A stretch of DNA of 63,821 nucleotides, the filler included, from Kipferlia bialata (taxonomy: Eukaryota), in assembly GCA_003568945.1 (NCBI GenBank). It is 8 parts of 7 records of this genome, joined end to end, with 100 filler letters (N's around TTAATTAATTAA, not from the genome) between each part and the next. Parts side by side here need not be neighbours in the genome. Positions count along the whole stretch, not along the records: positions 23,385 to 33,425 come from BDIP01001507.1; 7 more parts are not named here. One strand, 5' to 3'. Positions 1,512-63,372 of the stretch are shown piece after piece; position 1 is the stretch's first letter; the number at the start of each line of letters is the position of its first letter. Below the pieces are notes generated by a model. The model did no database searches. It was not told where the DNA came from and worked only from the letters and a program-made list of their open reading frames with translations. Made by a program: the position numbers and the translations under genes.

Positions 1512-4430
1512 TCAGTTGAACATTTCGGACAAACTGACCTTCTCGTCAGACTGTATGGCATACCCTCCAATGCTCTGTATCCATGCGTTGAGGCCAGGTC
1601 TCCCCTCCTCCTTCCACCATCTTGGGAACTCTGCCCTGAACGATGGCAGGTTGGCCTGGACGAGAGTGGCCGGGTTGAAGTAGGTGGGGGTGAACATGCT
1701 TGGGGTGAGGGTGGAGGAAGAGGAGAATAGGGTTCTTGAAGCCTCATGAACAATACTATGTGAGTCTGGGAGTGTGTAGGGTGTACATACCTCTCGTAAT
1801 CTCATATACAATTATATATGAGAATATCCATTAATGTATGTCTCATGTGTGTATATATAGTTGATATCACTGTACATACCTCTCGTATATGTTGCCGTGT
1901 CCCATCATGGCCTGGGTGTAGTTGATGGCCATGGCACCAGCCTCCCCATACAGGGTCATGTTGCGCTGGCCAAGAGCAATCTGGGGTGGGAGACACACTA
2001 TATACCATATGTTGCATTAGGACCAAGAGTCATATTGCGCTGGCCAAGGGCAATCTGGTATGAGACTACACAAAACAACAACAGCTTTTCTGCACCCCCA
2101 TGGTAGAGTGCGTTCATGGCAATGTGTGGAGAGTACATGTGTAGTATCCATACCGCCAGGACTGCAAAGTACCGCTGCAGCACTCCGTCGATGTCGTCTA
2201 TGTACAGCCTACGGCCAATGGACACAAGCTGGTGTTAGGCAAATGAGAGATGCAAGGGTCCTATTCATCATATATCTCTCCCCCTTTGCCAGCCACATAT
2301 TCTCTCTTTATACTGAGTCGACTCACCTCCTTGGCCCAATACTCTACCTCAGCACCGTATCTCTCACTCTTGAGGGCCTCGGACAGCTTGGTAAGGGTAT
2401 CCTGGGGGTTAGAGGGAACTGTGGGGTATTCATAGCAAAAAGCGAATACTAAGGAGACTCTTCCAGCTATTCCTGATACCTCATGAACCTGTATCAGGGC
2501 ATCAACAGACTCTGACTCCTATGGGTGAAAGTATACCTGTATGTGAAAGTATACCTGTGGAAGCCAGCTATTCCACACTCTGCTATCCTAGTTGAAGTGA
2601 GTATTCATGTCTCTAGTATACAATATGTACTCCTCACACCTCATCTGCGAGGCCGCACAATTGGCACATATATGTACCAGTGTCAGTCGTACCCAATATA
2701 TGTGACATACAATAGTATACCAATCACCTCATTCGACAGACTGCACAGGGACACATATTTGTAACGTATCAGTTGTCCCAATGTATAATGTGTGTATATG
2801 ATATATATATATAGTTGTATATCAATCACCCACCTCATCCGACAGAGTGCACAGCGGACACTGGCACTCAAAGGAGTACCCAGCCAGCTTCTCCTGATAT
2901 GAGTGGTAAAGAGGGTGTTATCCACTGTCGCCTACGTATTCTGGTATCCAGAACAATACCAGTACCAGTAGAAAAGTTATGAGGTGGCATCCGCTCTCAC
3001 ATTATTGTAGTAGAACCACACCTTTCTCTCGGCCCTACTGAGCCTGCGTGATATGTAGCTGGGGTTAGACTCCAACTAAGACAGCCAAATGCTACTCCTT
3101 GGAATAGTGTCAGCATACTGGCTCAATAACTAATAGTGTGCTCTTACAAATGTCTATATACCTGATTGTGAGTTCCTCCCCGGCATCGATGTCCCTGGTG
3201 GAGTGGAAGACCTGAAGGTAAGAACCAAGGGTAGTTTAACTACTGCATTTGGAGTGGAAAGAAGAAGGCGGGGGCGGAAAGGCAAAATGTAAAACAAGAT
3301 ACTTGCATACATTATTGGGGTGCGTACCATTTCCCCTGAGGACTCATCCCAGTACCTGCTGACATTGGGCACACAGCTGAGGTAAGGGCAGTATATATAG
3401 TTTTGCGCTCAACATGTCATAATATTGACCCCCAGACAGGATATATATAGGATAATAGAACAAAAATATCTGGCACACAGCTGATGTGAGTGGTGTATAT
3501 GGAGTATATATAGGAGTACAGTGAGTGTTGCACGGTGTATCTATATTATTATTACATTCCCGATGTCATTACATACACATGCATACATACACCAGTCCTG
3601 TGATTCAGCATGGATGCCTCCAGACAGGCATAGCAGAAACACTCCATGATTGTAATATAGTACTCAATGACATGAAAAATACAGTATAGAATATGATATT
3701 CAATATCATATACCTGTGGTTGAGCATGGATGCCTCTAGGCAGCAGCAGGACCCCAGGTTGTGCTCTCTCAGAGGGGCCTCACACCCAAACATCTGGGGG
3801 GTGAGAGACTGCACATTACTGACACACCACACTATTACAATAATACTGTGACTCTCAGTCTGAGAGTGTATGAAATAGTACATAAATAGTACATTATTAC
3901 ATACATTTGTTCGGCAGATCCCCCCGAATATCTTGGGCCCACCGCCTCTCTCTATCTGGGTGTGGTCGGACAGACTGAAGAAGGCATCCCTGGGTGTGAG
4001 GGGACACCAACTAATTCTATATTCTATATTGTATAGTATGACTGTACTTGAGGTGAGTTCCTGTGTTGAGGCCTGAATACCCTTGCATCATGACTGATTG
4101 TATAGTACTGATAAGTGCACCCGTACCACTTTCCCTTTGCCTTTACCTACACACATCACTCCTGTATGAGATCAGTCATAGTGTATACACTACCTGTACC
4201 ACTTTCCCTTTGCCCTGAGCTGCTGGTCGTATGAGTGCTGGATGGCCACAGAGGAGTAGCTACCACCCTCTGACATGTTGACAGGGGTGGGGTCGACAAG
4301 GAGGGGGAGCTCCCTGTATGTGAGACACTAGATATATAGATGCAATATATATACACTAAGCCTATGTATTTACACTGCCACCCTCTGACAGGGGTGTGGT
4401 TAACAGGGATAGGAGGGGGAGCTCCCTAGG
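1512..4430 (-). CDS. SET-domain (SMYD-like) lysine methyltransferase, multi-exon, 5' end uncertain or truncated
   Basis: Spliced exons read EASMLNHS|CVPNVSRYWDESSGEM|VFHSTRDIDAGEELTIS|YISRRLSRAERK|EKLAGYSFECQCPLCTLSDE, giving the NHSC, GEELTISY and post-SET CxCxxC motifs. GT-AG junctions; last exon ends in TGA at 1512-1514. Confidence 0.85.
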
Positions 4431-14600: not shown

Positions 14601-14768
14601 GTCCTCTTGATGGCCGGTGGGATGGGGGAGATGGGGGCAGAGAAGGGACCTGACCCGATGGAGGTGCGGCGGCCTGAGAGTGAGAACAGAGAATGAAGCG
14701 AGAATAAATAGGGGAGATATTGGGGAAGGGGGGGGGGGGGGGGGGCCGGGGGGGGGGGGAGGATGGGG

Positions 14769-14923: not shown

Positions 14924-16688
14924 TGCTGTTCCTGATCAGCTCAAGGGCAGTCCAGCCAGCGTCAATCCTATAGATAAGTAAATATGCAATACTACAAAGC
15001 CCAAATGTTTATGGATACATAAGGGTACATGGTACGTAGCCTACATATATATATATATATACATACGGACATTAAGGGTGCAGTATACCTGGCCTCATCA
15101 AAGAGTAACTCTCTATCCATCATGTATTAGAAGAAATCTATAACTCCTCCGATCATATATATATTATATATATTATATATATTATATATATTATATATAA
15201 TATATAAGGGTGCAGAGTATATATGGGTTCAGCAATGTATAAAGGGTGCATAAGTACCTGGCCTCATAATACTACATATGAATATACACATATGGACATT
15301 AAGGGTGGAGTGATACCTGGCCTCATCAAAGAGGAACTCAGGGAGCTCTCTATCCATATATGAGAAGAAATCTATTACCCCTCCGATCATATATATAAGG
15401 GTGCAGAGTATATAAGGGTTCAGCAGTGTATAAAAGGGTGCAGAAGTACCTGGCCTCATCGAAGAGGAACTCAGGGAGCTCCTCATCGCTCTCCTCCTCT
15501 CCCTCCTGGACATGAGTATATAGGTATATATATATATGTACAAATATAAATGTAATCTTTAAGTCTCATACATCTGCCTCTTCGTCGCTCTCCTCCTCTC
15601 CCTGGACATGAGTGTATAGGTATTATTGTATAAATATTTATATATGTATTCATATACATATGTATATTCTTTAGTCTCATACCTCTCCCTCCTCCTCCTC
15701 CTCCTCCTCTCCCTCTCCCTCTGCCTCTGCCTCTGCCTCTGCCTCAGGCTGCTCCTCCTCCTGGGCATGAGTATAGGGGTATACACACACATATACATTG
15801 CACATACAATAAACATATCATTCATACCTCTGCCTCTGTTTCTGTCTCAGACGCAGACTGCTTCTCACCTTTGAAATATGAATATACATAATAAGTATTG
15901 AATTGACTGTTGATAATATCCAATACAAACTAGGTGTATACCTCAGACTCGGTCTCAGACATATATATATATATATATATATCAATAGCATAACAACATG
16001 ATTCTAAATACAACACATGTACTACGTAAATATATACATGCATACCTCTGACTGTGTCTCAGACCCCTTCTCACCAGAGTCCTCAGAAGAAGTCTCAGAG
16101 GAAGACTCTGAGGGTAAGAAATAGATAGAGGGGAGTCAGAGAGAGAGAGAGAGAGAAAGATGACAGTAATCGGAAGTCTCAGACGAAGACCCTGGATGTG
16201 AGAAATGGAGAGAGAGGGAGAGAGAGGGAGATAGGGAGAGAGAAAAGGACGTCTCAGAAGAGGAATACTCTAAGGGTGAGTGAGAGAATCAGAAAAGGAG
16301 AGAGAAGAGGAAGTCTGAGAAAAAGATGACTCTAAGGGCGAGGAAGGGAGAGAGAGAGAGTCGTACCCTCCTCCCCCTCCTCTGGTATGGGGCACCCAGC
16401 CATGCCAGCACCCATGGTGGCAAATATACTCTCTCTCGCTCTATATATATATATATATATATATGTATATTCATATATACATACCTTCCTCCTCCTCCTG
16501 AGGGACTGGGCACCCAGCCATGCCAGCACCCATGGTGGCGAACTGAGCCAGTACCTCACGGGCAGTGGCCTGGGCCTCTGAAGATAAGTATTATTATACT
16601 AATATATATATGTATAGAGAGAGAGAGAGAGAGAATATATTACTGGGCCAGTACCTCACGGGCAGTGGCCTGGGCCTCTGAAGATAAG

Positions 16689-16740
<52 letters not shown>

Positions 16741-18186
16741 AGTACTGAGCAAGGACCTCACGGGCAGTGGCCTGGGCCTCTGAGGGGTGAGACAATATAT
16801 ATACATTAAGACTTATATATATGTTTAGAGAGATGGAGAGAGAAGATAATAATGGGCAAGGATCTCACGGGCAGTGGCCTGGGCCTCTAGGGATAAGATA
16901 CAGCAGTGATAATAATTGTATATAGATGGATATATATATATATATGTGTATACACTAAACATACCCTCATCATCGATGTCCCTGACAAGGGTGTCCATGT
17001 TGCCATAGGTGGTGCAGATGGACTCAAACACTAGGGACCTGGGGTAAAGGCTAGAGAGAGAGAACGAGACAGAGAGAGAGAGCGAGAGAGAGAGAGAGAG
17101 AACGGCACCCATGTGTCCTCGGATGAGGGGGGGGTGGGGTTATATAGAGGGTGTACATTCATACCATAATATGCAGCAGGGCTACAAGGGTGGCTTGGAA
17201 TACATAACTATATAAATTTATATAGAGAGAGAGACCATTGCTACCTAGCATAGTGGAGCAGAGCAACAAGGGTGGATGGCTGGAGGGGGTCATCGCTGGA
17301 GTTAGAGAGAGAGAGATCAAGTAAGACAACGCCTATTACTCACCCTAGCTCTCCGTTGAAGAGCTCTGTGTTGAGCACGCCCTGCTTGAAGATGGCAACC
17401 TAGAGAGTTAGACATATAGATACTACATAGACATATATATATATATACACTGATATATATATACCCATAATAGAGCTCTGTGTTGAGCACGCCCTGCTTG
17501 AAGATGGCAACCTAGGGATGAGGTTGAATGGCTAATGTATATATATATATATATACATATATAACCATTACACAATCATAATAGCGCTCTGTGTTGAGCA
17601 CGCCCTGCTTGAAGATGGCAACCTGGACAGTGAGAGCTATATACTAGATACTATATATATATATACTATATATATATATACTATATACTGGATACAACCT
17701 GCTTGAAGATGGCAACCTAAGGATGAGATAGATTCTAATACTGAATTGATAGCCACACACTCTCATATTATATACATATCACCAAGTGGACGCTACACAA
17801 GTAGACAAACTAGCTCTTGTCAAATCAGTACGAGAAACATCATACAGAGTGTGGAAAAGCGGATATAGGCTTGACTTAGCATCATCCCACAACTATACAC
17901 ATTAACGCGCAATGCTATGGGCCATGACATATGTATATGGTATACTGCCACAATCTACACCTACTCTGAGACGTACTATTCGTATAAACACACACACACA
18001 CACACACACACACCCATCCCCCGCCACTCCCCCCACTTATTGTGAAGGTATCAAATAGCATTGTGTTGTTATAGATAGGGGGTTATCAATGGTCCCCACC
18101 TGCTCTGGGGCCCACTCGTCGTGGCTAACACCATGAGGGGCATTGAGGAGCAGAATGTTGATGTAGTCCTGGAAGGTGAACCTCAT
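14922..18186 (-). CDS. Multi-exon hypothetical protein with long acidic region, 3' truncated
   Basis: Exons MRFTFQDYINILLLNAPHGVSHDEWAPEQ|VAIFKQGVLNTELFNGELG ... EAQATAREVLAQFATMG ... Glu/Ser-rich exons ... EELPEFLFDEAR|IDAGWTALELIRN. Confidence 0.6.
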
Positions 18187-18378: not shown

Positions 18379-19004
18379 ATGGCGCGTGCCCCCAAGCGTG
18401 GCAAGAAGGCCAAGGTGAAGGTAACACCTTGACACGAGGAGATCGGACTGCATTGTATTCTAAATCTCTCTCTCTATATATATGTATACATGTATAAATA
18501 TTCTGAGTCATACCCTGACCCCTAGGTGCCGGCTGGGCACGAGGAGAGTGGGTTGCAGGCCTCTCTGTGGGGCAGGAGGTTCGATGCAGTGGATGATATG
18601 CTGTATGAGATGGAGGTGATGTCGGGGAGGCAGTGGACTGCTACAGGTAGGGGGCAATCATGCCATATGTGTATGTTATACTATATGTGCATATGTATGT
18701 GGTGGTAGTGGACTGCTACAGGTAATATAGTTTCTTGTACTACTCGTTTTCTAGCTACTGGCATGGTACTCCCCCCCCCTCCCCTTTTCTCTCTCTTGCA
18801 TTGTCTCCAACCACTGGCAAGNNNNNNNNNNNNNNNNNNNNNNNNNNNNNNNNNNNNNNNNNNNNTTAATTAATTAANNNNNNNNNNNNNNNNNNNNNNN
18901 NNNNNNNNNNNNNNNNNNNNNGAGAGAAGCAGGAGGTGGTGGGCAGGGCAGCCAGGATGATGAGGATTAGGGGGGCAGAGCACAGGTATAGAGTGTGTAT
19001 AAGG

Positions 19005-19049
<45 letters not shown>

Positions 19050-20811
19050 GCTGGACAGGGCAGCCAGGATGATGAGAACAAGAGGGGCAGAGCACAGGTA
19101 TAGAGTGTATATGTATATATAGATATACACTAATGTCTTAATTCTATTTATAGTATTTGCCTTACTATCTCTCACCCCCCAGACAGCTGCAGAGTGCCCA
19201 GGTGTATTCACACACACACACATATATGTATGTATATACTATAAATGCTATACATGTGTATGTGGTATCTCACCCCCAGACAGCTGCAGAGCGCCCAGAT
19301 GCTGGCAGACGCACAGGCAGGCAGGGCAAAGCAGGTACTGAGGGTGTATATATATACATAGAGAGAGAGAGATATATATACATATCTATATATGTTGTGG
19401 CAGACGCACAGCCAGGTAGGGCAAAGCAGGTACACTCACATATAGTCCCTGTTCAATATATATACACAGAGGAATTACATTCCACGTCATTGTCCATACT
19501 CACCCCCAGATCCCCGAGAGGAAGGCCAAGGAGGAGGAGGAGAGACGGGCAGAGAGACAGGTGCGGTAGACATGGACTCATCACATGTATACTTTTTTAT
19601 ATATATAGACATACATATATATAGACGAGCAGAGAGACAGTTACGGCATGTGTAACATGCATATGTATATGCATACCTGATCTAACTGTATATACGCACT
19701 GCTTTGTAATAGACGGGCAGAGAGGCAGGTACGGGAGATGTGTTACTAATACTATCTCCTCACTGAACACATTTGATGTCTTACCTACAGATAGGGTCCT
19801 CCGCTGCCAAGGCCCCTATATATGTGTATTCTATGTGTATGTGTGATATAGTCTAATACCTAGGTCCTGACCGCTGCCAAGGCCGAGGCCCTTGCTGTGC
19901 AGAGGGAGGAGAGAGAGAGGAGGGAGAGGCAGAAGGCACAGCAGGCACAGACTAGGTATGGATGGGTGTGTGTATATATATAGAGAGAGGGGGGGAGAGA
20001 GAGAAGAGAGAGAGGCAGAAGGTACAGGTTAGGTGAGGAGGGTGGATATAGACGTGTGTGTGTGTGTGGAGAAAGAGAGATTGAGGCAGAGAAAGAGAAT
20101 GAGAGAGACCTGTGTCTTCTATACATTTGCATTTTTCCGACATACCATTATTCTATACTCTGTCCTACTCTACATACCCCTCACCCCAGACTTGACCTTG
20201 CCGAACAGATAGCAGTCAAGCAGGAGAGGATCAAGGTTAGTTCATATGTATGTATATATGCACTTGTTGTATCTTATCAGTCAAGCAGGAAATCAAGGTA
20301 CGGAAGTGATATTCACATGCACATATGCAGTATGATATAGTATGTGTCCTCTATTTTGTATGCAAACATTATATATGCCCCTCTACCCCCACCCAGGTTG
20401 CCAAGCTACAATAGATGATTTGTGTATCTATATATGTGTCTATCTATCCCCATATATATATATCCCACCCCAGGTTGCCAAGCTGCAGCAGACCGAGGCA
20501 CTGGCACTGGCCAAGAGGCAGGTATGGGCATATAGATATGTTGTATAGTCCGTACATATACACTGAATGTGTATGTGTATGAATATATATATGGTTAGAT
20601 ACCCACCCCAGGCCCTTGAGGCCGAGGCCGCCGAGGCCAAGAAGCAGGCCATCAGGAGACAGAAGGTATGGGTAGCATTGTCAGTATGTATGTATGAATA
20701 TTTGTATGAGTGTATATAATATTCATCTGACACCTCAGGAGGCCGACCTGGCTGCTGTGCAGAGAGACGTCATAGCAGAGACAGAGGCAGTGCACCGGTA
20801 TGGATGTATAT

Positions 20812-20848
<37 letters not shown>

Positions 20849-22465
20849 CCTATATACATGAAGAGAGTGAGGGAGAAAGAGAGAGAGAGAGAGAGAGACG
20901 TCATTGCAGAGACAGAGGCAGTGCACCGGTATGGATATATACATACATTTCTCTAAACACACACCCGCATAGGTCTTGAGACTCCCACCCCTCACCCCCA
21001 GCACCGTCAGGCTGCGTGAGAGGCATGAGATGGCTGTGTCATCATCAGTGGCAGACAGCAGAGAGAGGCTCAAGGGGGACATCACAAGGGTCAAGAAGGA
21101 GGTATGGTTGTTTATATATGCATATATAACTACGTATCTAACTCTATAGGAACTGGCCACCCGTGCTGCCAAGCAGGAGAGGGTCAAGGGACTGGTGGAG
21201 AAGTCAATGTCAGCTCAGTCAACTAGGTGAGGAGTGTCTATACATAACCTAACAAAGGGCAAGGGGCACTGTATATATGTGTGTATATGTATATATTCAT
21301 CTATCAGTCATGTATGTATACCTTACTAACCATAGGACCGACCCCTCCCTTGGTGTCAACCGCATACCATCAGTCTCTCTCTCACACACACTCTTACATG
21401 TGTCTAACTGTTAGGACCGACCCCTCCCTGGGTGTCAACAGGATGCCGTGGCTGGATGGTGTGCAGGGACAGGAGCCCAGGGCAGAGAGAGAGGCCAGGC
21501 AGCAGAGGGCACTGGACGCTGAGGTATAGTGTATGCATATGTATATATATATATGCAGAGAGAGGTGGGGGTATGGGGAAGAGAGAGAGAGAGGGAGAGG
21601 CCAGGCAGCAGAGGGCACTGGACGCTGAGGTAGTTATATATCTATATATAGAGAGAGAGAGGGGGAGAGAGAGAGAGATAGAGAGAGGCCAGGCAGCAGA
21701 GGGCTCTGGACGCTGAGGTATAGTGTACAATGCCTATGTCCCTATCTGCCTATGTCTTACCCCCCAGGTCCGCGAGGCCAGACTGGGCCAGATGAGTGGG
21801 GTGGGTGCAGGGGCCAAGGCAGAGAGGCTGGCAGACGTCGAGTATGCAAAGGCAATTGCTAAGAGGTATGGCTACTTCTCCCTATCAATTTCTCTTTGTA
21901 TATAAGTATATGCATCATCTACCTCCCCCCCAGGCCTCTGAGGTATATAGCAGTGCACTCATACATATATACCTTTGTACCCCCTCACCCCCAGAGCCGC
22001 TGCGTCTGAGGTAGCTGAGGCCGAGAAGCAGAGGAAGAGGAGAGAGGCAGCAGTGGCTGTGAGGAAGGAGCAGGTATAAACACATACTCTTAGACCCCCA
22101 TATATATATATCAGTATACTTATGATCCCATATATATGTTTATACTTGTCATCCCGCTGACCCCGTAGGAGAGGCAGCAGCGTGAGAAGAGACGTGCCCT
22201 GGAGGCAGAGAGAAGGGACTTCAGGTAGTGTCTGATATATACACCACACATATGTTGTATTATATTCATTTTGAAATATATATATAATGTAGTATACTAT
22301 GCTTGGAGGCGGAGAGGAGAGACTTCAGGTAATAGTACATAGTGTTGATAATATATAGGATATTCCATCGACTTTATTATTGAACATGTGTGTGTATGAT
22401 ACTCATCCATTTGCATATACCTCACCACTAGAGAGGCCGAGCGCTCCAGCGTGCATGTATATGAG

Positions 22466-22505
<40 letters not shown>

Positions 22506-23150
22506 TAACTCACCGTTAGAGAGGCCGAGCGCTCCAGCGTGCATGCCATCAGACAGACCAGAGAAGAGAACATCAAGTATGCCCTGGCAGAGGTATGGAG
22601 CATGGAGTGTTGAGTGTTTTATTATACAACTTGTATACATCTATATAGGTATAAAGTGTATATATTGGGTATTGGCCCAGGGAGGAGAACATCAAGTATG
22701 CCCTGGCAGAGGTGTGTAGGATGAGTGTATACATGCATATAGTACCCCTTACATCAAGAGATCATTCGGTGGTGGGTGTCGAATCGACACTGTCGATAGG
22801 ATAGCCATCTCCTGCTCTCTCCCTATATTACATATATATATGTGTGTGATACATATGTATGCTTACCCCAGGCTGCCGAGAGGACAGGCAAGGGTGCAGA
22901 CCCCGGTCCCTTCCAGGTGTTTGCCAGACAGCTCGGCAAGGTATGGATGTATATAGTGTATGTGTATATAGAGATATTGTATATATGTGTGTGCATGTGG
23001 ATTACATATGTATGTAGTATACGTCTGTTCGCCAGGAAGCTCGGCAAGGCATCAGTGACACTCTTTGGGAGAAGTGTATCATATGTATATGGTGTATATA
23101 CATGTATTTGCACTTCCCCTGACCCCCAGGAGGACAAGAAGGTCACCTAA
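18379..23150 (+). CDS. Long coiled-coil protein, trichohyalin-plectin-homology-like (possible axonemal/cytoskeletal protein), about 20 small exons, spans the spacer at 18822-18921
   Basis: ATG GCG CGT GCC... at 18379; E/R/K/Q/A-rich exons (VQREERERRERQKAQQ, RLDLAEQIAVKQERIK, EKQRKRREAA); TAA at 23148-23150. Family assignment rests on composition only. Confidence 0.6.
18822..18921. other. Artificial spacer, probably replacing an intra-scaffold gap
   Basis: Both flanks are short (about 4 kb) and a + strand gene appears to continue across it. Confidence 0.85.
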
Positions 23151-23384: not shown

Positions 23385-23487
23385 ATTTTTTTTTTTTATT
23401 TTACCCCCCCCCCCCCCCCCCCATCATCCGCTCACCCCCATGCTGTAGTGGATATATATCTGTGTCATTACCCCTATTCACCCCCAG

Positions 23488-26400
23488 GCTCTGACTCCAC
23501 TGGGTATGTATATAGATACATATAGATATAGATATAGATATATAGAGAGAGTGTTCTGTATAGTATTCATCCCCTCACCTCCAGGCTCTGACTCCACTGG
23601 GGAGGGAGAGATCCAGTCACACATCAGGTATGGAGAGATGCATTTGGATATATACCATGTATGTATGTACCTCTACAGTATTTATGGTGGTCAAAATAGT
23701 TTCATCTAGCTCTGTGCAGGCTGTCGGGAGCCCTTGTCTCTAAGGCATTCTCTCTCTCTCTCTCTCTATACTAATGCTATATATATATCTTACTCTAGCT
23801 CGGTGCAGGCTGCCTGGGCCCTAGTGTCCAAGGCACTCAGGGAGGGATACAACTACACAATGGGTACGGAAACCAACATAATATATATGTATACTTATTG
23901 GAGTTATGGTACAGTTTCGGTTACACTCGCTTCGTAACACATGATAATGCTTACCCCCCAGCCGATAACTCGTCCACTGCCATCGCCAATGTCCTCGAGG
24001 CATGCACCAACCAGTCAGTGTGCCCAGAGGTATATAGAGACATATATATATAGTATATGTATATAAATATATGATATATATTGTGACAGTGTATAGATAG
24101 ATATACATGTATGTGCTCGAGGCATGCACCAACCAGTCAGTCTGCCCAGAGGTATGGGATATGTATATGTTTATATATGTGTGTGTATATATTTATGTGT
24201 CTACAGGCTTTGATAATTCCCCCCTCACCCCCAGGTCTCTCTGTCCTCGCTCTATCTCTCTTGTCACCCATGTATATCCTAGTACAGTGATCCTACTATA
24301 CTCCCTGCAACTATACTGTGTATCTCACCCCCAGGTCTCTCTGTCCTCCCTCTATGTCTTCTGCGATGTCATCCAGAAGGTGCACGGACTGTTCCTAGGC
24401 TCAGGTACAGTTATGCATACAGTGTGTATATATAGTATGGATAGTAGTGTACTAGCTGTATATGATTGTGTGATGTCATCCAGAAGGTGCACGGCCTGTT
24501 CCTGGGGTCAGGTAGGAAATAGTCACATAGCTACAGTATATATATAGTGCATAGAGTATGTATTGGCATATATCATACGGAAGACTGTTCCTGGGATCGT
24601 GTTTGTGTTATGGAGTGTTCTGTCTTATAGATATGCATCTAACCCACCAGCCCCCAACAACTACTCCTATGACGTTGCCTCTGTCAGACCCCACTTTGAG
24701 CAGTACCTCCTGCCCCTGCAGAGTGCACTGGCATCTATGCTCTGTGACCCAAGGTACTTAGTACACCTATAGTATAGTATATATATGTAGTATAGACTAT
24801 ATGATAGTATACTAGTACCTGCTGCCCCTGCAGAGTGCTCTGGCCTCAATGCTCTGTGACCCAAGGTATACAGTGTATATAGGATAGTATATACACTATA
24901 CTATACTATTATAGTATACTAGTACCTCCTGCCCTTACAGAGTGCTCTGGCATCTATGCTGTGCGACCCTAGGTAGATATATGTATAGTTCTCATAGTAT
25001 AGTAGATACTAATATGGTATAGGATATTAGTTGTATATTTGTAGTATACTAGAACGTCATATCCCTGCAGAGTGCTCTGGCCTCGATGCTGTGCGATCCT
25101 AGGTGTACTATAGAGTGTGTGTATATTGATATCGACATTGTATGGATGGATATAGAATATACAGCCTGAATGCCATGCATCCTAGGTAAACACATACATT
25201 ATGTATGTGTATATATAGTATAGTGTATAATATATTGGTATTGTTTATGTACATGCCTCACCCCAGGACCCAGATCTCCGTGGCCACCACTGATGTGTTC
25301 AACGGTGTATATATATACTATAGTATATATACATAGTATATATATGAATGGACTTGACTCACTTCAGGACGCAGATCTCTGTGGCCACCACCGATGTGTT
25401 CAACGGTGTATATATATACTATAGTATGTATACATAGTATATATATGAATGGACTTGACTCACCCCAGGACCCAGATCTCCGTGGCCACCACTGATGTGT
25501 TCAACGGAGTGCTAGAGTATGTCCTCCTACCCGTCCAGAGAGAGAGAGAGAGAGAGAGGAAGGGCAAGGGACACACCCAGCCAGAGGCACAGGACATGAG
25601 TGGGCTGGCATGGCTGTACAAGGTATATCAGTAGGATGGATATCTAGTGTATTGATCGGTATATATATTTATGTATAAATATATATATATATGTGTGTGT
25701 GTGTGTATGTATATATATAGCCAGAGGCACAGGACATGAGTGGGCTCGCATGGCTCTACAAGGTGGGTGTGTCAATATAGAGATTTATATGTATACTAGT
25801 GTATACACCATAAGATACGTCACATGAGTGGGCTGGCATGGCTCTACAAGGTGGGTAGAGTAGTTACTACTCTTTGAAGCCCTAGAGTAGTATCTTCATT
25901 TACAATTGTATATGTAATTATACATACCCCCTTACCCCCAGGCCGTCCTCAAGCATATAAGTATTATTAGTATTATACATATTAGTAAACATATGTCACA
26001 CTAATTATTCTTATATGCTACATGTTATAACTCTAACACTTAGGCTGTTCTGAAGCACGTCATCTGCCCCCTGTTCACCTTCCCTCTGTTCAGTGCATCC
26101 ATATTTACATATGTCTCTATGTATATATGCATTTATGTATAATCCTACCCTACTAACATCAGGCCGTGCTGAAGCACGTCATCTGCCCCCTCTTCACCTT
26201 CCCCCTGTTCAGTGCATCCATCCACACCACATCCAAGACACTGCTGTCTCTGGGTAGCGTTATCAACAAGGTACAGATATGGAGTACATAACACGTATAT
26301 CTGTATAGAAACACTAGGGCTCCCCCCACTTTCACCCGTGCATGTGGCAGCGTATAGTGTATAGAGTATATACGTGTGTATACTATGTATATGTATATTA

Positions 26401-26497
26401 TTGTGTTATACTAACTCCAGGGCGCCCCCCACTTTGACTCGTGCATGTGGCAGTGCGTGTCTGACATGCTGTGTGACATGTTCAACGACAACGGAGG

Positions 26498-26534
<37 letters not shown>

Positions 26535-26573
26535 ACCCTTATTATCAGCCATGGCCAACATCCTGTGGACTGT

Positions 26574-26608
<35 letters not shown>

Positions 26609-29600
26609 ACCCTTATTTTCAGCCATGGCCAACATCCTGCTGACTGTGGACAAGCCCTTTGACAGTGAGAGGGACAGGGAGAGATCACTCCACGAGGGAG
26701 AGGTATGAATTGATACACTATTTCATCCTTGTCAGTCTTTCCGATGTATATATATAGATAGATGGATATAGATTGATATAAATAGATTGATAGGTCTCTA
26801 CACGAGGGAGACGTATATGTATTCATGCATCCATAGTGAATATTTAGTCTTTATATGGTGAATTAATGGTGCATATAAATTTTGAATTCCACTGACCCCC
26901 AGACCGAGAGGGAGAGGCTCGAGAGGGAGAGAGAGAGAGAGACCAGTGCCGTTGTGAGTGAGTGGCCCAAGATTAGGAGCCAGTGCTACCTGCAGCTGCT
27001 ACTGATTAAGGTATGTATATATACATATGATGATGTATATGTATATATAGATGTATAGATGTATATGCATACACACAGTATGTCAAGATCTGGCTAACCG
27101 CAATTGCTCCTCACATAGGTACATTCCTATATATTTTATTTTCACCCTTACATGAGTGTACACTTCCCATACAAGTGTATACTTATGAGTATACTCACCC
27201 CCTAGGTCACTGGCTCCATTGTGACCAGGTCCCACAGACACTCATATATATCTGTGTATATGTTTATATATATATATATATATATATATGACTCTCTATG
27301 TATACTAATCATAGGTCACTGGCTCCATTGTGACCAGATCCCACAGACACCTCCCCAGGGTGGTGCTGGACCAGTGCCTAGGTATGCATTGGACATATAC
27401 ATACATACATATATGTATGTGTGTGTATTTGAAAATTTATATATGTGTGTGTATGTGTCCCTGACCCCAGAGTCCATTGTCTCAGCCGCCAGATACGCCG
27501 CTGAGTTCAACGTGTCACTGGGATACAGACAGGTATGGATATACATCAATTACATATAGATAATATATAGATATATGAATATCGAGATATATATAGATAT
27601 GGGTCTGCAAAAATAGTGCTCTCCACATAAATATAGACATACCTCTCACTGTCCACTCCATGCTGGCCTCTGCATCACGTTCTCTCTCTCTCTCTCTCTC
27701 TCTGTATACAGAGTGATACTCCATATGCATACCTCTCACTGTTAGGAGGTCCACTCCATGCTGGCCTATGGTGGTGTTGCTGACCTCTCCCCCGAGCTGC
27801 CATCCCTCACCAAGCAGGAGACAGGGGGATACAGGTATGACATACTGTATACTATGTACATACATGTATATACATGTGTATATATATGTATATGTACATA
27901 TGGGTATATATCCCCCGAGCTGCCATCTCTTACTAAGCAGGAGACAGGGGGGTACAGGTATGGTACTACTATGTGTATGTGTGTCTGCTATATATACACT
28001 GCTCACACTTAGAGTGCTCCTCAAGTGCTGCGAGACCCTCCTCCTAGATGCAGATGAGGCCACCCGCTCCCACATAGTGCACGACTACCTGTTCCCAGTC
28101 TGTCAGGAAGTACTGGCAGTCTATCTCAAGCATGTGGCTGTGTACAGGTTAGTTATAATATATATATATATATGGATATATACATATGTGTATATGTATA
28201 TACCTGTTCCCAGTCTGCCAGGAGGTGCTGGCAGTCTATCTGAAGCATGTCGCTGTCTATAGGTACATACACTGCATATATTTGTATATAAATATATATA
28301 TATGTATGTATGTATATACCTGTTCCCAGTCTGTCAGGAGGTGCTGGCAGTCTATCTGAAGCACGTGGCTGTGTACAGGTTAGTTGTTCTATACACACAT
28401 CTTTATATATGTGGATATGTATATACTATACAAATGTATATATAAATATTTGTATATATATGTATATAAGAGAGAGAGAGAGATGTCGCAGTGTACAAGT
28501 GAGTGATGAAGATATGTCTCTCTGCTTATGTATATATATATATACATCCTGTCTATAATACTCACCTTCTAGAGAGCTCCGTGTGCGTGACTCCACTACC
28601 TATGAGACCGAGTCCTCCCCAGCTGTACAGTCCACAACCATGAACGCTAGCCCATTCAAGGTATGTGTACACACACATATATNNNNNNACAACCATGAAC
28701 GCTAGCCCATTCAAGGTATGTGTACACACACATATATATATATATATGTATCCATGATAGTAATACTACAGTATTGCTGTCCAGCCCACAACAACCATGA
28801 ACGCTAGCCCATTCAAGGTATAGTGTGTGTGTATATATATATGTATATATATATATATATATTCATATCTATATGATAGTAATACTACAGTATCGCTGTG
28901 CAGTCCACAACAACCATGAACGCTAGCCCATTCAAGGTACCTTGGTATCATATACTGTAGCCGTAGCGATTCTAGCTTTGTTACATTTGCTGTCAAGGAG
29001 ATTATACATATTTGTGTTCATATTCTCATCCCAGGTTCCCTTCGCCGTCAAGGATCTCTCTCTCTCTATATATATATATATGTATATATGTACATATTAA
29101 TACTCATCCCAGGTCCCCTTTGCCGTCAAGGAGAAGAACCTCAAGACACTCAAGATAGAGCTCGACGCCACAGGTATATATCTATACACGTATGTGTATA
29201 TGTATCATACCATACTCATAGTGTCAGTATTCTGCATCACAATCATCTATGTATTCCTCACCCCAGGCGACATTGTGTCAGATGCCCTGCGTCTCCTTGT
29301 CCTGCCCTGCCTCTCCCCCTACCTCTCTGCCCTAGACACAGAGACACAGGGCCAGGATGTCCTATCCGCTCTGTACATGTCTGTCCTGTCCCTGGTGTCT
29401 GTGGATGATATGCAGCTGAGGGTGCTGGGAGGAGAGGCTATGAAGAGGTATATGCATGTACATAGTAGTGTATATTATGGTGTCAATATGTACCCCATCT
29501 ACTGTTTGTTCTAGCCCCCTTAGGTCCTGGTCCATCCGGTCTGCCTCCATGCCCTCTATATATGTATATATATGTGTATACATTGCTACTACATATGTGT

Positions 29601-30623
29601 ATATATGCTTAGTATCTCTCTATTATCCTCTAACTCCCCAGGTTCTGGTCCATCCGGTCTGCCTCCATGCCCGTGTCCATATCCACACCTGTACCTACAG
29701 AGACAGAGACAGAGACAGAGACAGAGACAGAGACAGAGACAGAGACAGTAGAGGCTGTTGTAGAGCCAGAGGCCGAGGAGGTAGTAGAGGCTGAGGCTGA
29801 GGAGGAGGTAGTAGAGCCTGTTGTAGATGAGGAGGTTGAGGTACAGCCAGAGGCCGAGGTTGTCGAGGAGGTGGTTGCCGAGACTGTAGAGACTGTTGAG
29901 ACTGTAGCAGAGGAGGAGGAGGAGCCTGAGGTGGAGGCAGAGACCCCCGCCCCTATCGAGATAGAGGGAGAGGCAGAGGCAGATGCTGTTGATGCCGACA
30001 CCTGGCAGCCCAGTACCCCTGTGGAGGCCGAGCCCGAGGACGGTGTCGCCCAGGAGGCACTGCCACCCCCTCACCCATACATCCCTGAGGAGGAGGAGGA
30101 GGCTGAGGTAGAGGAGGTAGAGACTGTGGAGACAGTTCCAGAGCCCGAGACTCCTGTAGAGACTGTTGTTGAGGAGGCTGAGGCTGAGGTCCCCGCTATC
30201 TCTGAGCCAGAGGCTCTTCCAGAGACTGAGGTTGCTGTAGAGGCAGAGGTTGCTGTAGAGGCTGTTATGGAGCAGGAGGAGGTTGTAGTTGCTGAGGTTG
30301 CTGAGACTGAGGTGGTTGCTGAGGTGACCCCCCTCCCCGAGACAGAGACTGTGGTGGAGACAGAGACCACTGCTGATGTTGTTGCCGAGGCTGAGGCTGA
30401 GGTCCCCCAGGTAGAGGAGGAGGAGGAGGTTGCTGAGGTCGCTGAGGTTGCAGCTGAGCCCGAGGCTACTCCTGCTGAGGTCGAGGAGACAGCAGAGGCA
30501 GAGGCAGAGGCTGTCCCTGAGGTCGAGGAGACCAAGCCAGCCACCCAGAACAAGCCCAAGAACAAGGGAAAGAACAAGGGTAAGGGAAAGGGGAAGGGGA
30601 AGGGCGGAAAGAGGAGACGGTAA
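23488..30623 (+). CDS. BIG/Sec7-family large ARF-GEF, C-terminal (HDS) half, 5' truncated, with an acidic C-terminal extension
   Basis: Spliced peptides match recalled BIG/Sec7 HDS motifs in order: AAWALVSKAL; NVLEACTNQSVCPEVSLSSL; YLLPLQSALASMLCDPRTQI (cf. WFPLL..L..DPR.EIR); VLKHVICPLF; SQCYLQLLLIK; AAEFNVSLGYR; LPSLTKQETGGY. TAA at 30621-30623. Confidence 0.7.
29690..30620 (+). repeat. Low-complexity coding region: (TE)n, Glu/Val/Ala repeats and a basic KNKG/KGKG tail
   Basis: ORF 29667-30623 translation. Confidence 0.85.
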
Positions 30624-31207
30624 AGGTGTGACTGACTCAGTATCTGAGTGCCAAGTGAGGTTTCCGTTTTGTGTCATATATCCCCTTTGGACGACTGTTA
30701 TGTTGTCGCCAGTGTTGAGAATATTAGTAATTGTGAATAGATAGTTCATTCATTCCAGTGGTATGTGTTTTGAAGAGTTTACACTGAAGACCATTTCTAT
30801 TGAATCCCACTCTAAGAGACTTTGCTTGCAGTCAACCAGAATAGACTCATTCTGGTTGACTGCAAGATGGTCATAGACTCTATGACCATCCCCCCTGATT
30901 CAGAGTGCTCGCGTCTATGTGGAATAATAGTGCAGTGAAAGAGTAGGTGGTGCTCTCTAAAGAATGGCGCTATGAGAGAGGGCATCCGACCCCTGGTGTA
31001 TATAGAGGATACCACCGAGAGAGGATAGTGGATGGTGTCTTTGAAAGATGTATAACCAAATATATATATATATATATATATAACCAAAAATTCTTTCGGT
31101 GTACTGTAGAGGCAAGATGTGAGAGCTCACTGTATACTTTGTGAGAATATTGTGACAAGATCTCGAGATGACCGCTAAAGGTACTCAGTGAACAGAGAGG
31201 CTTTCTT

Positions 31208-32245: not shown

Positions 32246-32822
32246 ACAGTTCTGCTGTATTGGAACCACTGCAATGAATACATTGGACTGCAGTGAATAT
32301 ATTGAACAGGAAGTGAGTCGATGGGAGTGCTGTTTCACAGAGACTCCCAGTCTCTGAGTATTCGCCGGCAATATTTGAGAAGGGTCCAATTTGTAGATAT
32401 ATATATGGAATACTGTACTCGTCGTCGTCTCTAGGGTCTGAGTCAGTACGTTACAGTGACGGTCACTAGCACTTGGTAACATATCATTGATTTCCTTCTT
32501 TCGCTCTCTCTCACTTACCCTACAGTGTCACCAGGTTGGGAACTCTACTAACTCACAATAGACACCAATAGATGGTGTCCCCTACAATTTGCAGCACTCG
32601 ACTAAAAGCTGTATCATAATTGGGTAAAGATGGCCTCCATACTTGGACACTGTCCAATGCATGTATCAAGATGCCATCTCCTACTACCATACCAACAAAT
32701 TGTAGGCTAGATTGAGAACAACACCTGACTGTCTACTGTCTCACTGCCCACCAGTCAGAGATACTGGTACTACCTATCCATCCTCGACACCAATTTACCA
32801 TTTGCAGTCCAGACACCTTCCG

Positions 32823-33525: not shown

Positions 33526-33565
<40 letters not shown>

Positions 33566-33599
33566 GAGAGATAGAGAGAGGGCCCCACTCCTAACTCAC

Positions 33600-52000: not shown

Positions 52001-52017
52001 CCGCTCTGGATCATGTC

Positions 52018-58712: not shown

Positions 58713-61700
58713 TCAGTGGTACTCCGGTCCAAGCAGGGCAGGGTCTATCTCCACCAGTACTGATGTATCTGTAGCAACTGACAGCATAGTAGTTGGGCTC
58801 AGCATGACTGTCTTGGACTGAACCAGGTACCTTAGAGTGAGTATAGTTATATACTGAATGCTACACTCGGAGTATATTCATATATATAGTCAGAATATGT
58901 AAATACATAGTGTACTAGGCTGACAATGACTGTCTTGGTCTGCACTAGGTACCTAAACATTAGAGAGGGGAGGGGGGAACCAAGACTCCACACTATACAC
59001 TGATATCCAATGTCGAATAGTGAGTAAACTAGTTCTAGATGTGAATATGAACCCAGTGTACGAAAATCAGCTGCCTAGCACTAAGTGATAGGGGGCAAGG
59101 ACCATTGACACATAAGACCAATGAAAACCAACACAGCATATGTCTGTATACATATGATATTGTATATTTACCTCAGCTGTCTGGCACTGAGTGGCAGAGG
59201 GGGCAGGGGTCTTGGCTCATTGGACACAGGGTCACAGAGGTAGAACCTAGTATTGGATTGTATAACTATATAACAGAAAACACCATTTAACAAATAGTAA
59301 CACTACAATATATATGTATATGACACAGGGTCACACAGGTAGAACCTATGGAGTAAGAGTGTGTATATGTAGCAATACTATAACATATACGTAGTATTTA
59401 GACATATACTACACTATATAGACACCACGGGACACAGCGTCACACAGGTAAAGCCTATCAAGTGAATGTACAACTATACTACTGGTCACATTTCAAGTCA
59501 CACATATGTAATGCATCCTCACACCTCTGCACCCCCTTGCTAGTCTTCAGGCACCACTTGGTCACTGAAAACAAGCGGTATCGTCTACACACTGCAATAC
59601 ATTTCCGTACATACTTCAACACACACACATATATGTATATATACATATACAAGTATATATGTATATACCTCTGTACCCCCTTGCTAGTCTTCCGGCACCA
59701 CTTGGTCACTGCCATCAGCTGGTTATGTCCATACAGTGGGACAGCCAGTAGGGTTCGGACAGTGGGGTCACCCATATCTATGGGGGTCTAGTGATGAGAA
59801 TTGTGCGAACGATATATATATATACATTGTCAGGCTGGCTAAGCCAGCATTACCTTTGTCCACTTTCTGTCCTTGTATGCCAGGTGTGCATCACTCTATA
59901 TATACAAGTATAGAGTGAAATATCTAGGTCTAGTGACTTCACAGGTCCTTGGCTTTGTCCACTCTAAACAGTGAATCTATATGCCTAACATACACAATAA
60001 TAACAGTTGATATATATACAGACATATATAGCCCCTACTTTTGTCCACTTCCTATCCTTGTATGCCAGGTGGGCATCACTGTAGATGTGGTGGGTGCCGT
60101 GGAAGGTTGCTCCACTTGGGGTTAGAGTCTCTACCAAATATCCGTCCGAATATATGATATGCAGCAAGCCTTTCGCCCGTGTAGAAGTGTATTAGTATGT
60201 GTGTGTGAAGACCACATGTCTTGTTTGGCTCGACATTGCCCATGCACCGTGTCCACTATATACGTGTATAAGAGTGACTATATATAGAAAGACACTAGGA
60301 TTTCAAGGCTTCCTTGTCATATCATGCACATATGTATATGTTCCCATTTACCTTGTCTTGCCAGACATGGCCATACACTGTATACACTGTTCATATACAA
60401 TAGACATATACATATATATATACATATGTACCTTGTCTTGCTAGACATTGCCCTAGGACAGTCCATGCACACATTGTCCAGTATAGACGCTATATATACT
60501 ACTTTCATAACATATATATCACTGTATGTATGTATATACATATACACCTTGTCTTGCCGGACATTGCTATCGGACAGTCCATGCACCTAGTCCAGTATAG
60601 ACGCTAAATATCAACTATTATATCATCTATAACACTATAATACAATATATATACATATGCACCTTGTCTTGCTAGACATGGCCCTCGGACAGTCCATGCA
60701 CCGTGTCCCCAGCCATCATGTCAAACGATGTATATACTACTAACATAACATCTATACAACCATAATATACATATATATATGTGTGTGTTAAATATGCCTT
60801 GTCTTGCTGGACATTGCCCTCGGACAGTCCATGCACCGTGTCCACTGTCTGGTGTCTAGAGAGTATTCCCATGTCAGCATCGGGGACACAACGTCAGGGG
60901 GGTGCTGGTTACCACCTGCTATTAGCATACATACGCACCTACTATTATGTATATATATGATAGTATAGTATACTATATGGAGGTCAAGAAGAGTATGGGA
61001 GAGACAACGTCAGGGTGCTGGTTGCCACCTGTCAGAGTGAGGTTTACCAATAATGTAAATACACGCAATCATACACATATTCGCCCTCAGTAGTATCCTA
61101 CCTACCACCACCAGTATGTTTCCTATGCCAAACAGACACGTCAGACAGATTGTTAAATTAATAATATAATAATTGAATACAAAGAAAGATTGATGATATT
61201 ACCTACCACCACCAGCATGTTTCCTATCCCAAACAGACATGACCAACAGATTGTTAAACTAATTATCAATATAATACTATATATTATTTAATTTTACTAA
61301 TTATCAATATAATAACTAAATACAAAGAATTATTGATGATATTACCTACAACTACTAATGTGTTTCCTATCCCAAACAGACATGACCAACAGAGTGGCTC
61401 AGGGGACAGGTCACCCTCGGTGTATGGTACACTCTCCCACTCTCCTGTGGTTAGGGTTTCAGAATTATAGATACAAGGCCTTGTATAGTATGGTAAAATA
61501 CTATACATCTGTAGAAATAGCAAAGTTCACTTTCATATACATATATTATATATTACTATATTTTGTAAACACAATGTACAAAATTATTGAAACCCTACCT
61601 GTTGCTATGGTGTACACAGCCATGAACCACCTGGGTATGCTATCATCATACTCCTCTCTCTCTGCCTCTATGGGGTTCAGGGTGTGCCCTCCATAGGCCA

Positions 61701-63370
61701 CTACTGCATCACCAACACGCACCAGCTGCATGCTGTATACACCCTGGTGTCAGGACTCATACACACACTCATATACATAACACATATATATATTAACATA
61801 TCAGAAAGGGTATCACCCACACGAACCAGCTGCATGCTGTAAACACCCTGGTGTTAGGATACACATACTAGGATGTCAGAAATTATGCATACATATGTGT
61901 GTGTTTTCATTTGTCTCTTGGGATACATCACAGAGCTCCAAACACATCATAATGTGCCTATACCTGTATTTGTATATATAACAATAAACAATAGCATGTT
62001 TCTCTCTGCCAATACAAGGTACCTTGGGGATTATGTCAATACAAATTAGTAGTCCCTTGCTAGGTGTGAACATATGTAGTATTATATTACCTGTGGGTTT
62101 GGGGGTCCAGGTATCCGTTGTATATCTATAGTCCGGTCAGGGGTGAGGCTGAGTATGAACCACTTCTCCTTGGGCACATACCCCTCGGTGCCTAGGTCTA
62201 CCTGTATTGAGTATATATGAGTATAGTACAGCATAGTATAGTATAGTATATCATAGTATTCAACCTTTCTTCAATAATTAGCTTGAGCTTAGTATATACA
62301 TATATCTATGAACCACTTCTCCTTGGGCACATACCCCTCGGTGCCTAGGTCAACCTGCATTTAGTATAGTATAGTATAGTAATAGTATAGACCTATTATT
62401 ATTCAACCTCTCATTAATAATTAGCTTGCGTGTACCTACGTCGACCTGGGTATGAGTATATATGAGTATATACACTCTAAGCATTAATCATAAGTGGCAC
62501 GGTCTCTCACTCTCAATGAATGTGAGTATATATGTACTAATGCATACACTACTTGCATAATAGTAGTGTACATATTCATATATGTGAATGTATTAACACA
62601 TATGAATACACATATGTATGCTATATATGTATACTATATCTTTTGGAATACATACCTGATAGCACATCATGTCTATCTAAGCACAGATGTTGTTATATAT
62701 ACACTATAGTATATACCTGATAATACATCATGGCTGTGTTGTGACCTAGACTGGCCATGCCAATGTCATATATATAAATGTATTTTTACATACATATATA
62801 TACTATATATATGTATGTGTTGGTATTTACTATAATATGCACCTGATAACACATCATTGCCGTGTTGTGGCCTAGACTGGCCATGCCAATGTCATACACA
62901 GCCTCCTCTTCATCATCACCCACGCCTTGTGTGAGTGTGTAATTTTCTCATATACCATGCTTTGACATATACTATTGCACATTACTCAGTGTCATAGACT
63001 GCCTCCTCCTCATCACCTGCACCTGGGGTTAGTATGCAGATATGTATATAGAAAAGTATACATATACAATACTATTATAGTATTATAACAATGTCATAGA
63101 CAGTCTCTTCTTCCTAATCACCTCCTACATCTGACAGTGAGGATCGATATATATATATATATCATATATATATATATGAATATATATGAGTATACACCTG
63201 GCAGCAGTGTGCAGTCAGTGCACCATGGTCCAGCCATGAATGTATTATATAGATATTCATACGTCTCTCTCTCTATCTCTATCTATCTATATACAAAAGT
63301 ATATATCCATCTATAAATATTTATGTATATACCTGGCAGTACCGTGCAGTCAGTGTACCATGGTTCAGCC

Positions 63371-63372
<2 letters not shown>
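58713..63372 (-). CDS. Divergent kelch-like family protein, tail-to-tail paralog of 55876-58112
   Basis: MAEPWYTDC; ASLGHNTAMM; LVRVGDAVVAYGG; WFMAVYTIAT|GEWESVP; LFGIGNTLVVV; KTVMLSPTTML..VEIDPALLGPEYH*. Confidence 0.7.

What the first reader, a model, noticed from the sequence alone, without database searches (positions are those of the whole stretch)
24700..26220. 'Exon echoes': intronic partial exon copies that differ almost only at synonymous sites
Seen: the exon end YLLPLQSALASMLCDPR|gt recurs in the following intron at about 24816, 24923 and 25063. Against the intact exon I count 4, 6 and 7 differences, all synonymous (e.g. GCA/GCT/GCC, TCT/TCA/TCG, CTG/TTA, TGT/TGC, GAC/GAT). The same holds for RTQISVATTDVFNG x3, PEAQDMSGLAWLYK x3 and AVLKHVICPLFTFPLFSASI x3 (GCC GTC CTC AAG CAT / GCT GTT CTG AAG CAC / GCC GTG CTG AAG CAC). 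The copies are truncated and would not splice in frame. Established: dead copies should mutate at all codon positions. Inference: the copies come from functional alleles or cycle in and out of the functional exon through unequal crossover or gene conversion, leaving an intronic archive of synonymous alleles.
Basis: partly seen in the sequence, partly recalled or inferred. Interest (0 to 1): 0.86.

Follow-up and report, generated by a model that had tools for sequence, protein, structure and literature searches.

The report
Introns archive retired half-exon alleles
In this single-celled eukaryote, many introns hold stacked half-copies of the neighbouring exon that differ from it mostly at silent positions, likely because they are retired pieces of other working alleles brought in by recombination, which would let one genome record hidden population diversity and genetic exchange.

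Summary
Real and window-wide. 69 half-exon copies ('echoes'; unit median 106 nt) sit beside 49 of 109 splice sites examined in five genes; nearly all carry one splice site. A separately assembled DNA-run contig spans the 24702 array unchanged; a spliced contig skips those echoes. Differences from the used exon fall 45/26/156 on codon positions 1/2/3; strictly synonymous 141 of 227, against 92.5 expected if only the used exon were protected. Echo-versus-echo differences show the same bias (20/8/52). Echo splice signals stay valid while adjacent intron is nearly unrelated; the farthest echoes decay most; 3 of 5 larger arrays are mosaic. In toy simulations only exchange between alleles with about 15-18% silent diversity matched. 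Against: no second allele was seen in the DNA run, no other strain was found, and the copies are not purely synonymous. The architecture is known (amphioxus 'mirages', human F7 intron-7 repeat), and the scan noted similar arrays in two other genomes; the strong two-sided silent bias is what I did not find in print. New variant of a known kind.

The parts
23585..30624 (+). Host gene, 18 exons called by hand, 5' part missing at the contig edge; protein family not identified (helical-repeat-like; likeness to the C-terminal part of BIG/Sec7 ARF-GEFs is recalled, not shown)
   Evidence: open frame to a stop; four exon pieces and three GT..AG joints match spliced contig of run X2; family searches blank, weak HEAT/ARM look-alikes
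24651..24753 (+). Used exon ending YLLPLQSALASMLCDPR, GT donor
   Evidence: X2 record 9 piece 24648-24751, 0 other letters
24814..24865 (+). 3' echo 1 with GT donor; 4 synonymous differences
24921..24972 (+). 3' echo 2 with GT donor; 6 synonymous differences; same junction as echo 1
25051..25102 (+). 3' echo 3 with GT donor; junction-side codons decayed, donor-side differences synonymous
25150..25185 (+). Decayed fourth echo remnant ending at a GT; below the scoring threshold
   Evidence: alignment A1
25267..25308 (+). 5' echo (far) of exon RTQISVATTDVFNG with intact acceptor; 1 synonymous difference
25368..25409 (+). 5' echo (near) of the same exon with intact acceptor; 4 synonymous differences
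25469..25622 (+). Exon inferred to be used (RTQISV...GLAWLYK)
25719..25762 (+). 3' echo PEAQDMSGLAWLYK with GT donor; 2 synonymous differences
25822..25850 (+). Shorter 3' echo with GT donor; 1 synonymous difference; different cut point
25942..25958 (+). Short 5' echo AVLKH with its own acceptor; not scored (too short)
   Evidence: sequence, acceptor list
26044..26102 (+). 5' echo AVLKH...FSAS with a different valid acceptor; 4 synonymous differences
26163..26270 (+). Exon inferred to be used (AVLKH...VINK)
   Evidence: open frame
24235..24259 (+). 5' echo whose acceptor is skipped in the spliced contig in favour of the acceptor ending at 24334
   Evidence: X2 joint 24027-24333
28201..28378 (+). 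Two 62-nt 3' echoes of exon 28013-28147 with 7 and 4 differences, all synonymous
18922..23150 (+). Second echo-rich gene (coiled-coil-like protein), 13 echoes scored, pN/pS 0.21
15046..17720 (-). Third echo-rich gene, 11 echoes scored in two exon sets, pN/pS 0.14 and 0.07
60200..63372 (-). Fourth echo-rich gene (part modelled), 14 echoes scored, pN/pS 0.21
1880..4430 (-). Fifth gene (SET-domain-like by recall), 5 echoes scored, pN/pS 0.23

Best explanation
The echoes are tandem half-exon copies with one splice site each, and their silent differences likely come from other working alleles, copied in by unequal recombination in a population predicted to have about 15-20% silent diversity. Steps: (1, inferred) a duplication of about 100 nt across one splice site founds an array; only units with one splice site persist, because units holding a whole exon or whole intron would change the protein. 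(2, shown for one acceptor and four donors in one contig; general rule inferred) splicing takes the acceptor and donor closest to the intact exon, as in exon definition, so the copies stay out of the mRNA. (3, inferred) exon sequence is the only good homology between divergent alleles, so an echo on one chromosome pairs with the working exon of another; crossover or conversion places a half-exon plus splice site plus intron piece that was functional until then into the array. (4, pattern shown, cause inferred) after capture it decays at all positions, most in the copies farthest from the exon. No function of the echoes and no return to the exon is required.
For: Strictly synonymous 141 of 227 vs 92.5 under one-sided selection, p 7e-11; unique differences 117 of 199, p 2e-7; 38 of 47 untied arrays have third-position excess. 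Echo-vs-neighbour-echo differences 20/8/52 by position; differences private to one echo 15/4/31. Echo acceptors anchored at exon base 1: 25 of 25 YAG, 22 of 25 with branch-like motif, though they differ from the used acceptor by 4.9 of 14 nt ungapped (null max 16); donors 31 of 35 GT, 30 of 35 changed at +3..+6. Flank identity 0.63-0.66 vs 0.58 for unrelated introns, while second positions differ 26 of 849. GC3 0.690 in echoes vs 0.695 in exons, introns 0.38. Positions 1+2 differ 5 of 343 in nearest vs 17 of 329 in farthest echoes (p 0.008), position 3 flat. Four-gamete conflicts in 3 of 5 arrays with three or more echoes; 11 of 13 multi-echo arrays share a cut point. Toy simulation: inter-allelic exchange, theta 0.2, C 5 gives pS 0.22-0.24, pN 0.03-0.04, as observed. 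Literature: crossovers prefer exons in hypervariable Schizophyllum (PMC4209137); metamonads lack NHEJ and fornicates have Dmc1 paralogs instead of Rad51A (PMC8516963).
Against: No divergent allele was seen: run X1 shows no other letters and flat depth over exons 24335-24404 and 24651-24753 at 90% likeness, so this strain looks homozygous or haploid here (contigs drop variants, so this is weak). No second strain was found. The required diversity is extreme and unmeasured. The simulation is a two-slot toy with whole-unit copying, N 150, 5-6 runs per setting. Four-gamete conflicts rest on 3-4 informative sites per array and could be homoplasy; 2 of 5 arrays had no informative site. Part of the junction-side excess may be alignment over-extension (after trimming 8 nt: 33/17/123). 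Gene models outside 23961-25295 have no RNA support. Formerly functional paralogs would give the same signals.
Confidence: 0.6

Rival explanations
1. The echoes come from once-functional paralogs or homeologs (old gene or genome duplicates) that were merged into one gene by repeated unequal exchange and then lost.
For: Explains silent bias, valid but changed splice signals and nearly unrelated intron flanks equally well and needs no present-day hyperdiversity; fits the absence of a second allele.
Against: Needs three to five long-diverged copies per gene and dozens of merges per gene across at least five genes; no paralogous exon was laid at 90% likeness in X1; no whole genome was held to look.
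Confidence: 0.13
2. Echoes and the used exon exchange within one chromosome often enough that amino-acid changes in echoes are purged by their cost when they return.
For: Mosaic arrays and shared junctions show exchange; nearest echoes are cleanest.
Against: In 7 of 7 within-chromosome settings pN/pS stayed 0.47-0.66, and fast exchange erased the silent differences (pS 0.006-0.03).
Confidence: 0.08
3. Echoes are translated in minor isoforms or by an unknown mid-exon splice or trans-splice, so they are under direct selection.
For: Splice signals are kept; trans-splicing exists in Giardia (PMC6679479 passages); contigs drop rare forms.
Against: The spliced contig matches only the used copies, 0 other letters; cut points fall in all three phases (23/32/14); 27 of 29 upstream and 38 of 40 downstream echoes reach one exon end only, the single whole copy being a first exon; no protein change to gain.
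Confidence: 0.08
5. Assembly artefact: divergent alleles strung together.
For: Short-read-style draft of joined contigs; one N gap separates two identical copies at 28683-28688; X1 may be the source sample; unit length near 100 nt.
Against: X1 contig 5 spans 24204-25286 with 0 differences and 0 gaps; the longest exact repeat there is 25 nt, below the 31-letter words, so the path is not ambiguous; its depth 443 is like its neighbour's 378, and a 49-nt record shared by two copies has 971; junctions join intron to mid-exon, which no allele would hold.
Confidence: 0.03

Closest known systems
Amphioxus 'mirages': minisatellite-like tandem duplications of exon-intron boundaries (globins BflGb6/BflGb9, Adh3, TnC, PGBD5; PMC3087553, PMC3902484, passages read)
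   Same: Tandem units spanning a 5' or 3' boundary, 10-160 nt, splice signals mostly kept, normal mRNA, outer copies most diverged; host highly heterozygous.
   Different: Here about half of splice sites in affected genes, 1-5 copies, in a protist; units are not homogenised but differ about 19% at third positions with nearly unrelated intron parts. Neither paper's main text holds 'synonymous' (0 hits each); their supplements were not read and could show the same bias.
Human junction-spanning minisatellites: F7 IVS7 37-bp VNTR, LMNB2 100-bp, PDGF 81-bp, CBS IVS13 (PMC1557585, passages read)
   Same: Donor site reiterated in the intron; most upstream donor used.
   Different: Rare loci, many near-identical monomers, donor side only in the passages read; here acceptor-side arrays too, with the last acceptor used, and codon-patterned divergence.
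Exon-biased crossing-over in hypervariable Schizophyllum commune (PMC4209137, passages read)
   Same: Shows that at 14% divergence exchange concentrates in exons, the step my mechanism needs.
   Different: Equal crossovers; 'unequal' has 0 hits; no echoes described.
Silent donor cassettes for gene conversion (chicken pseudo-V genes, Borrelia vls, trypanosome VSG archive; recalled, no call)
   Same: Unexpressed partial copies that keep coding character through exchange with an expressed gene.
   Different: Those diversify one protein; these sit in many unrelated genes and mostly leave the protein unchanged.
Internal gene duplication and intron gain by tandem duplication (Gao and Lynch 2009; seen only as a reference)
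   Same: Short intragenic duplications that are spliced out.
   Different: No new intron position is shown here; the existing intron grows.

Membership tests
Mirage / junction-spanning minisatellite | Tandem units that span one exon-intron boundary | tested here: met
   27 of 29 upstream echoes start at the exon start, 38 of 40 downstream end at the exon end; units 55-228 nt, median 106
Mirage / junction-spanning minisatellite | Splice signal reiterated in most units | tested here: met
   25 of 25 YAG, 31 of 35 GT among anchored echoes
Mirage / junction-spanning minisatellite | mRNA uses the authentic site | tested here: met
   spliced contig skips echoes in 23961-25295; one contig, RNA status a guess; minor forms not visible
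Mirage / junction-spanning minisatellite | Copy number differs between haplotypes | not testable with these tools
   one sample only; no relative found
Mirage / junction-spanning minisatellite | Concerted evolution of inner units, divergent edges | tested here: inconclusive
   far copies more decayed, but units are not homogenised: flank identity near background
Duplicated, mutually exclusive exons | Each copy has both splice sites and the exon's phase | tested here: not met
   1 of 69 is a whole copy, a first exon; cut points in all phases
Gene-conversion donor archive for protein variation | Donors supply amino-acid variants to one expression site | tested here: not met
   differences mostly silent, in five unrelated genes
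Haplotype-duplication assembly artefact | Copies are not on one path in the reads | tested here: not met
Fornicate metamonad (lineage) | Branch point close to the 3' splice site; nearest named homologs fornicate | tested here: inconclusive
   49 of 50 acceptors have a loose branch-like motif within 14 nt (feature per PMC6679479); best named hit of the L24e-family protein is Dysnectes brevis, rank 4, by a small margin; no tree built

The most novel reading that the evidence does not exclude
A free-living metamonad without NHEJ or Rad51 exchanges DNA between alleles about 20% apart at silent sites so often that half of the splice sites in its TA-rich genes carry stacks of retired alleles; a single assembly then holds an ordered sample of the species' allele pool, giving population diversity and proof of cryptic sex from one genome, and the same may hold for mirages in amphioxus and sea urchins.
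Probability: 0.45. Interest if true: 0.82.

Novelty: new variant of a known kind. Interest (0 to 1): 0.64.

Why it matters
Sex has not been directly observed in Metamonada (PMC8516963). If the echoes are captured alleles, their silent divergence measures population diversity and their mosaic pattern shows exchange between homologs, from one genome. It gives a testable origin for mirages, whose mechanism is called unclear (PMC3087553). It also shows a short-intron protist skipping a good upstream acceptor, which points to exon-defined splicing where intron definition is the usual expectation (own knowledge). In practice such echoes will mislead gene callers and dN/dS-based tests of what is 'coding'.

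Tried and rejected
No whole genome held, so no genome-wide count or paralog search. No RNA holder on record was listed; X2 is a guess, judged spliced from its GT..AG joints. Reads were laid on 23900-25295 only, so the RTQ, PEAQ and AVLK arrays lack direct read or RNA support; the last X2 piece (25265-25295) cannot tell the first from the third RTQ copy, and only the record length (end predicted at 29726, inside a 6-nt repeat) favours the third. Host-protein identity: blank (5 of 5 exon pieces; 3 low-complexity hits); one search gave weak HEAT/ARM look-alikes. Relatives: none for exon 29269-29445; three distant loci (39-50%) for the L24e gene, none with near repeats. Non-canonical splicing between exon and echo at the shared AGTAC was considered: it would lose one base. 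Recursive splicing was considered: not tested. Mutation bias alone rejected: synonymous changes are 81 transitions and 74 transversions, GC3 is kept. Left out of the counts: E-rich exons at 15700-16350, the cut first exon at 18922, the last exons of two genes, echoes under score 30, and unmodelled genes at 53793-60200. Literature searches that did not turn up the silent bias: (listings only, open-licence library); the genome paper of the intron-rich fornicate Kipferlia bialata has 0 hits for 'duplicat' and 'tandem' (PMC5874029). The original Adh3 mirage paper was not read.

Full report
Setting. The window is a chain of contigs joined by N linkers; no whole genome is held. The finding lies in contig 23385-33425, in an 18-exon gene that reads open to a stop at 30624. 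Its family was not identified. A loose branch-like motif lies within 14 nt of the acceptor in 49 of 50 introns, and the best named relative of an L24e-family protein on another contig is from Dysnectes brevis, by a small margin. A fornicate metamonad is likely, not shown.

Observation. I called exons by hand for five genes and aligned each exon to its flanking introns at nucleotide level, blind to codons. This gave 69 echoes at 49 of 109 splice sites. Upstream echoes are acceptor plus 5' part (27 of 29 start within 3 nt of the exon start); downstream echoes are 3' part plus donor (38 of 40). Units are 55-228 nt, median 106. Of 2700 non-adjacent exon-intron pairs 17 reach the score, all AG-rich.

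Is it real DNA? Two runs of one sample hold the stretch. Laid on 23900-25295, one contig of DNA run X1 covers 24204-25286 with no difference or gap. The longest exact repeat in that span is 25 nt, so a 31-letter assembly path is not ambiguous. Its depth (443) is like the neighbour's (378); a 49-nt record shared by two RTQ copies has 971. Depth is a rough guide, and X1 may be the source sample.

Is it spliced out? One 4043-nt contig of X2 lies in four pieces with GT..AG joints and no other letter: it uses the first copy of the donor-side arrays at 24029, 24404 and 24753 and skips the echo acceptor ending at 24234 for the one at 24334. Its remaining length fits single use of each later exon. Taking the sites nearest the intact exon on both sides is what exon definition predicts (definition as in PMC3488318, passage); the F7 case shows the donor half (PMC1557585, passages). 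Rare isoforms cannot be seen in contigs.

The silent bias. Differences fall 45/26/156 on codon positions over 837/849/838 sites; all six exon sets show it. A frame-free spacing test agrees (80 of 125). I tested that: it predicts 92.5 synonymous of 227; 141 are seen under a strict rule (p 7e-11), pN/pS 0.21, bootstrap 0.14-0.30 against 0.5. Differences between neighbouring echoes, neither protected, are 20/8/52. Both lineages were therefore mostly under protein-level selection while they diverged. The bias is not absolute: 86 differences are not strictly synonymous, 3 echoes have stops and 9 have gaps.

Further marks of past function. Echo acceptors keep YAG in 25 of 25 and a branch-like motif in 22 of 25, though they differ from the used acceptor at 4.9 of 14 positions ungapped; a null with at most three random changes gave at most 16. 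Donors keep GT in 31 of 35. The 30 nt of intron beside them are 63-66% alike to the used copy's, against 58% for unrelated introns. GC3 is 0.69 in both echo and exon while introns are 0.38; third-position changes run GC-to-AT in 52 of 94, less than the 79% I expect from decay if intron GC is the equilibrium, while positions 1+2 fit decay (34 of 53). Positions 1+2 differ in 5 of 343 sites in nearest echoes and 17 of 329 in farthest, position 3 not significantly. Three of five arrays with three or more echoes fail the four-gamete test, on few sites; two have no informative site. Eleven of 13 multi-echo arrays share a cut point, so arrays grow mostly by re-use of one junction.

Mechanism. Only one copy per chromosome is translated at a time, so two copies can both be selected while diverging only if they sat on different chromosomes or in different gene copies. 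A two-slot Wright-Fisher toy model agrees: no exchange 0.55; exchange within a chromosome 0.47-0.66 in seven settings; exchange between alleles 0.08-0.23 in eight settings with C 3 or more, 0.43 at C 1; theta 0.2 with C 5 gives pS 0.22-0.24 and pN 0.03-0.04 at allelic silent diversity 0.15-0.18, and one-way exon-to-echo transfer suffices. I commit to captured alleles (0.6). In Schizophyllum at 14% divergence crossovers prefer exons (PMC4209137, passages). Metamonads lack NHEJ, fornicates have two Dmc1 paralogs and no Rad51A, and sex has not been observed (PMC8516963, passages); Dmc1 recombines mismatched DNA (PMC11514202, start of abstract only). These make the step plausible; none was tested here.

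Against. No second allele shows in X1 at 90% likeness; alleles 17% apart at silent sites should have been laid if present, so this strain is likely homozygous or haploid here, or the contigs dropped them. No other strain was found. Former paralogs would leave the same marks. Gene models outside one stretch lack RNA support.

Distribution. Five contigs with 18-89 (TA)n bases per kb hold 6-25 near repeats each; three 10-kb contigs with 5-8 per kb and many acceptor-like motifs hold 0, 2 (coding repeats) and 0. The cause is unexplained.

Comparison and novelty. The architecture is that of amphioxus mirages (PMC3087553, PMC3902484; passages) and human junction-spanning minisatellites; three defining features were met, one inconclusive, one untestable. 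'Synonymous' does not occur in either amphioxus main text; supplements were not read and may bear on this. Searches listed nothing on codon-patterned divergence among such copies; the library is partial. The scan noted similar arrays in two other genomes, none in this one. Verdict: real; new variant of a known kind; interest 0.64, about 0.8 if strain data confirm the allele pool.

Noticed in passing
window 33526-43559, 43660-53692, 4724-14768: Three intron-bearing 10-kb contigs (Nup98-like gene by recall, L24e-family gene, aminotransferase) have almost no echoes and 5-8 (TA)n bases per kb, against 18-89 in echo-rich contigs: two genome compartments.
   Followed up: partly
window 60798-60915 (-): The intact exon ends in a GC donor while four of its five echoes have GT donors; a GC-AG intron or a decaying gene.
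   Followed up: no
window 21934-21942 (+): A 9-nt piece with both an acceptor and a GT, resembling the start of exon 21995-22073 with a deletion; it would be an in-frame micro-exon if used.
   Followed up: no
window 23488-23503 and 19183-19201 (+): 5' echoes followed by a GT, forming would-be 16- and 19-nt out-of-frame exons.
   Followed up: no
window 28683-28688: A 6-N gap between two identical copies in one array; that copy may be an assembly duplicate.
   Followed up: no
window 63198-63237 (-): The only whole-exon copy is of a first exon starting at ATG; 3 of its 5 differences change amino acids.
   Followed up: partly
window 15700-16350 (-): Arrays of Glu/Ser-rich exon copies, not scored because of low complexity.
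   Followed up: no
window 53793-60200: More near repeats of the same kind in genes I did not model.
   Followed up: no
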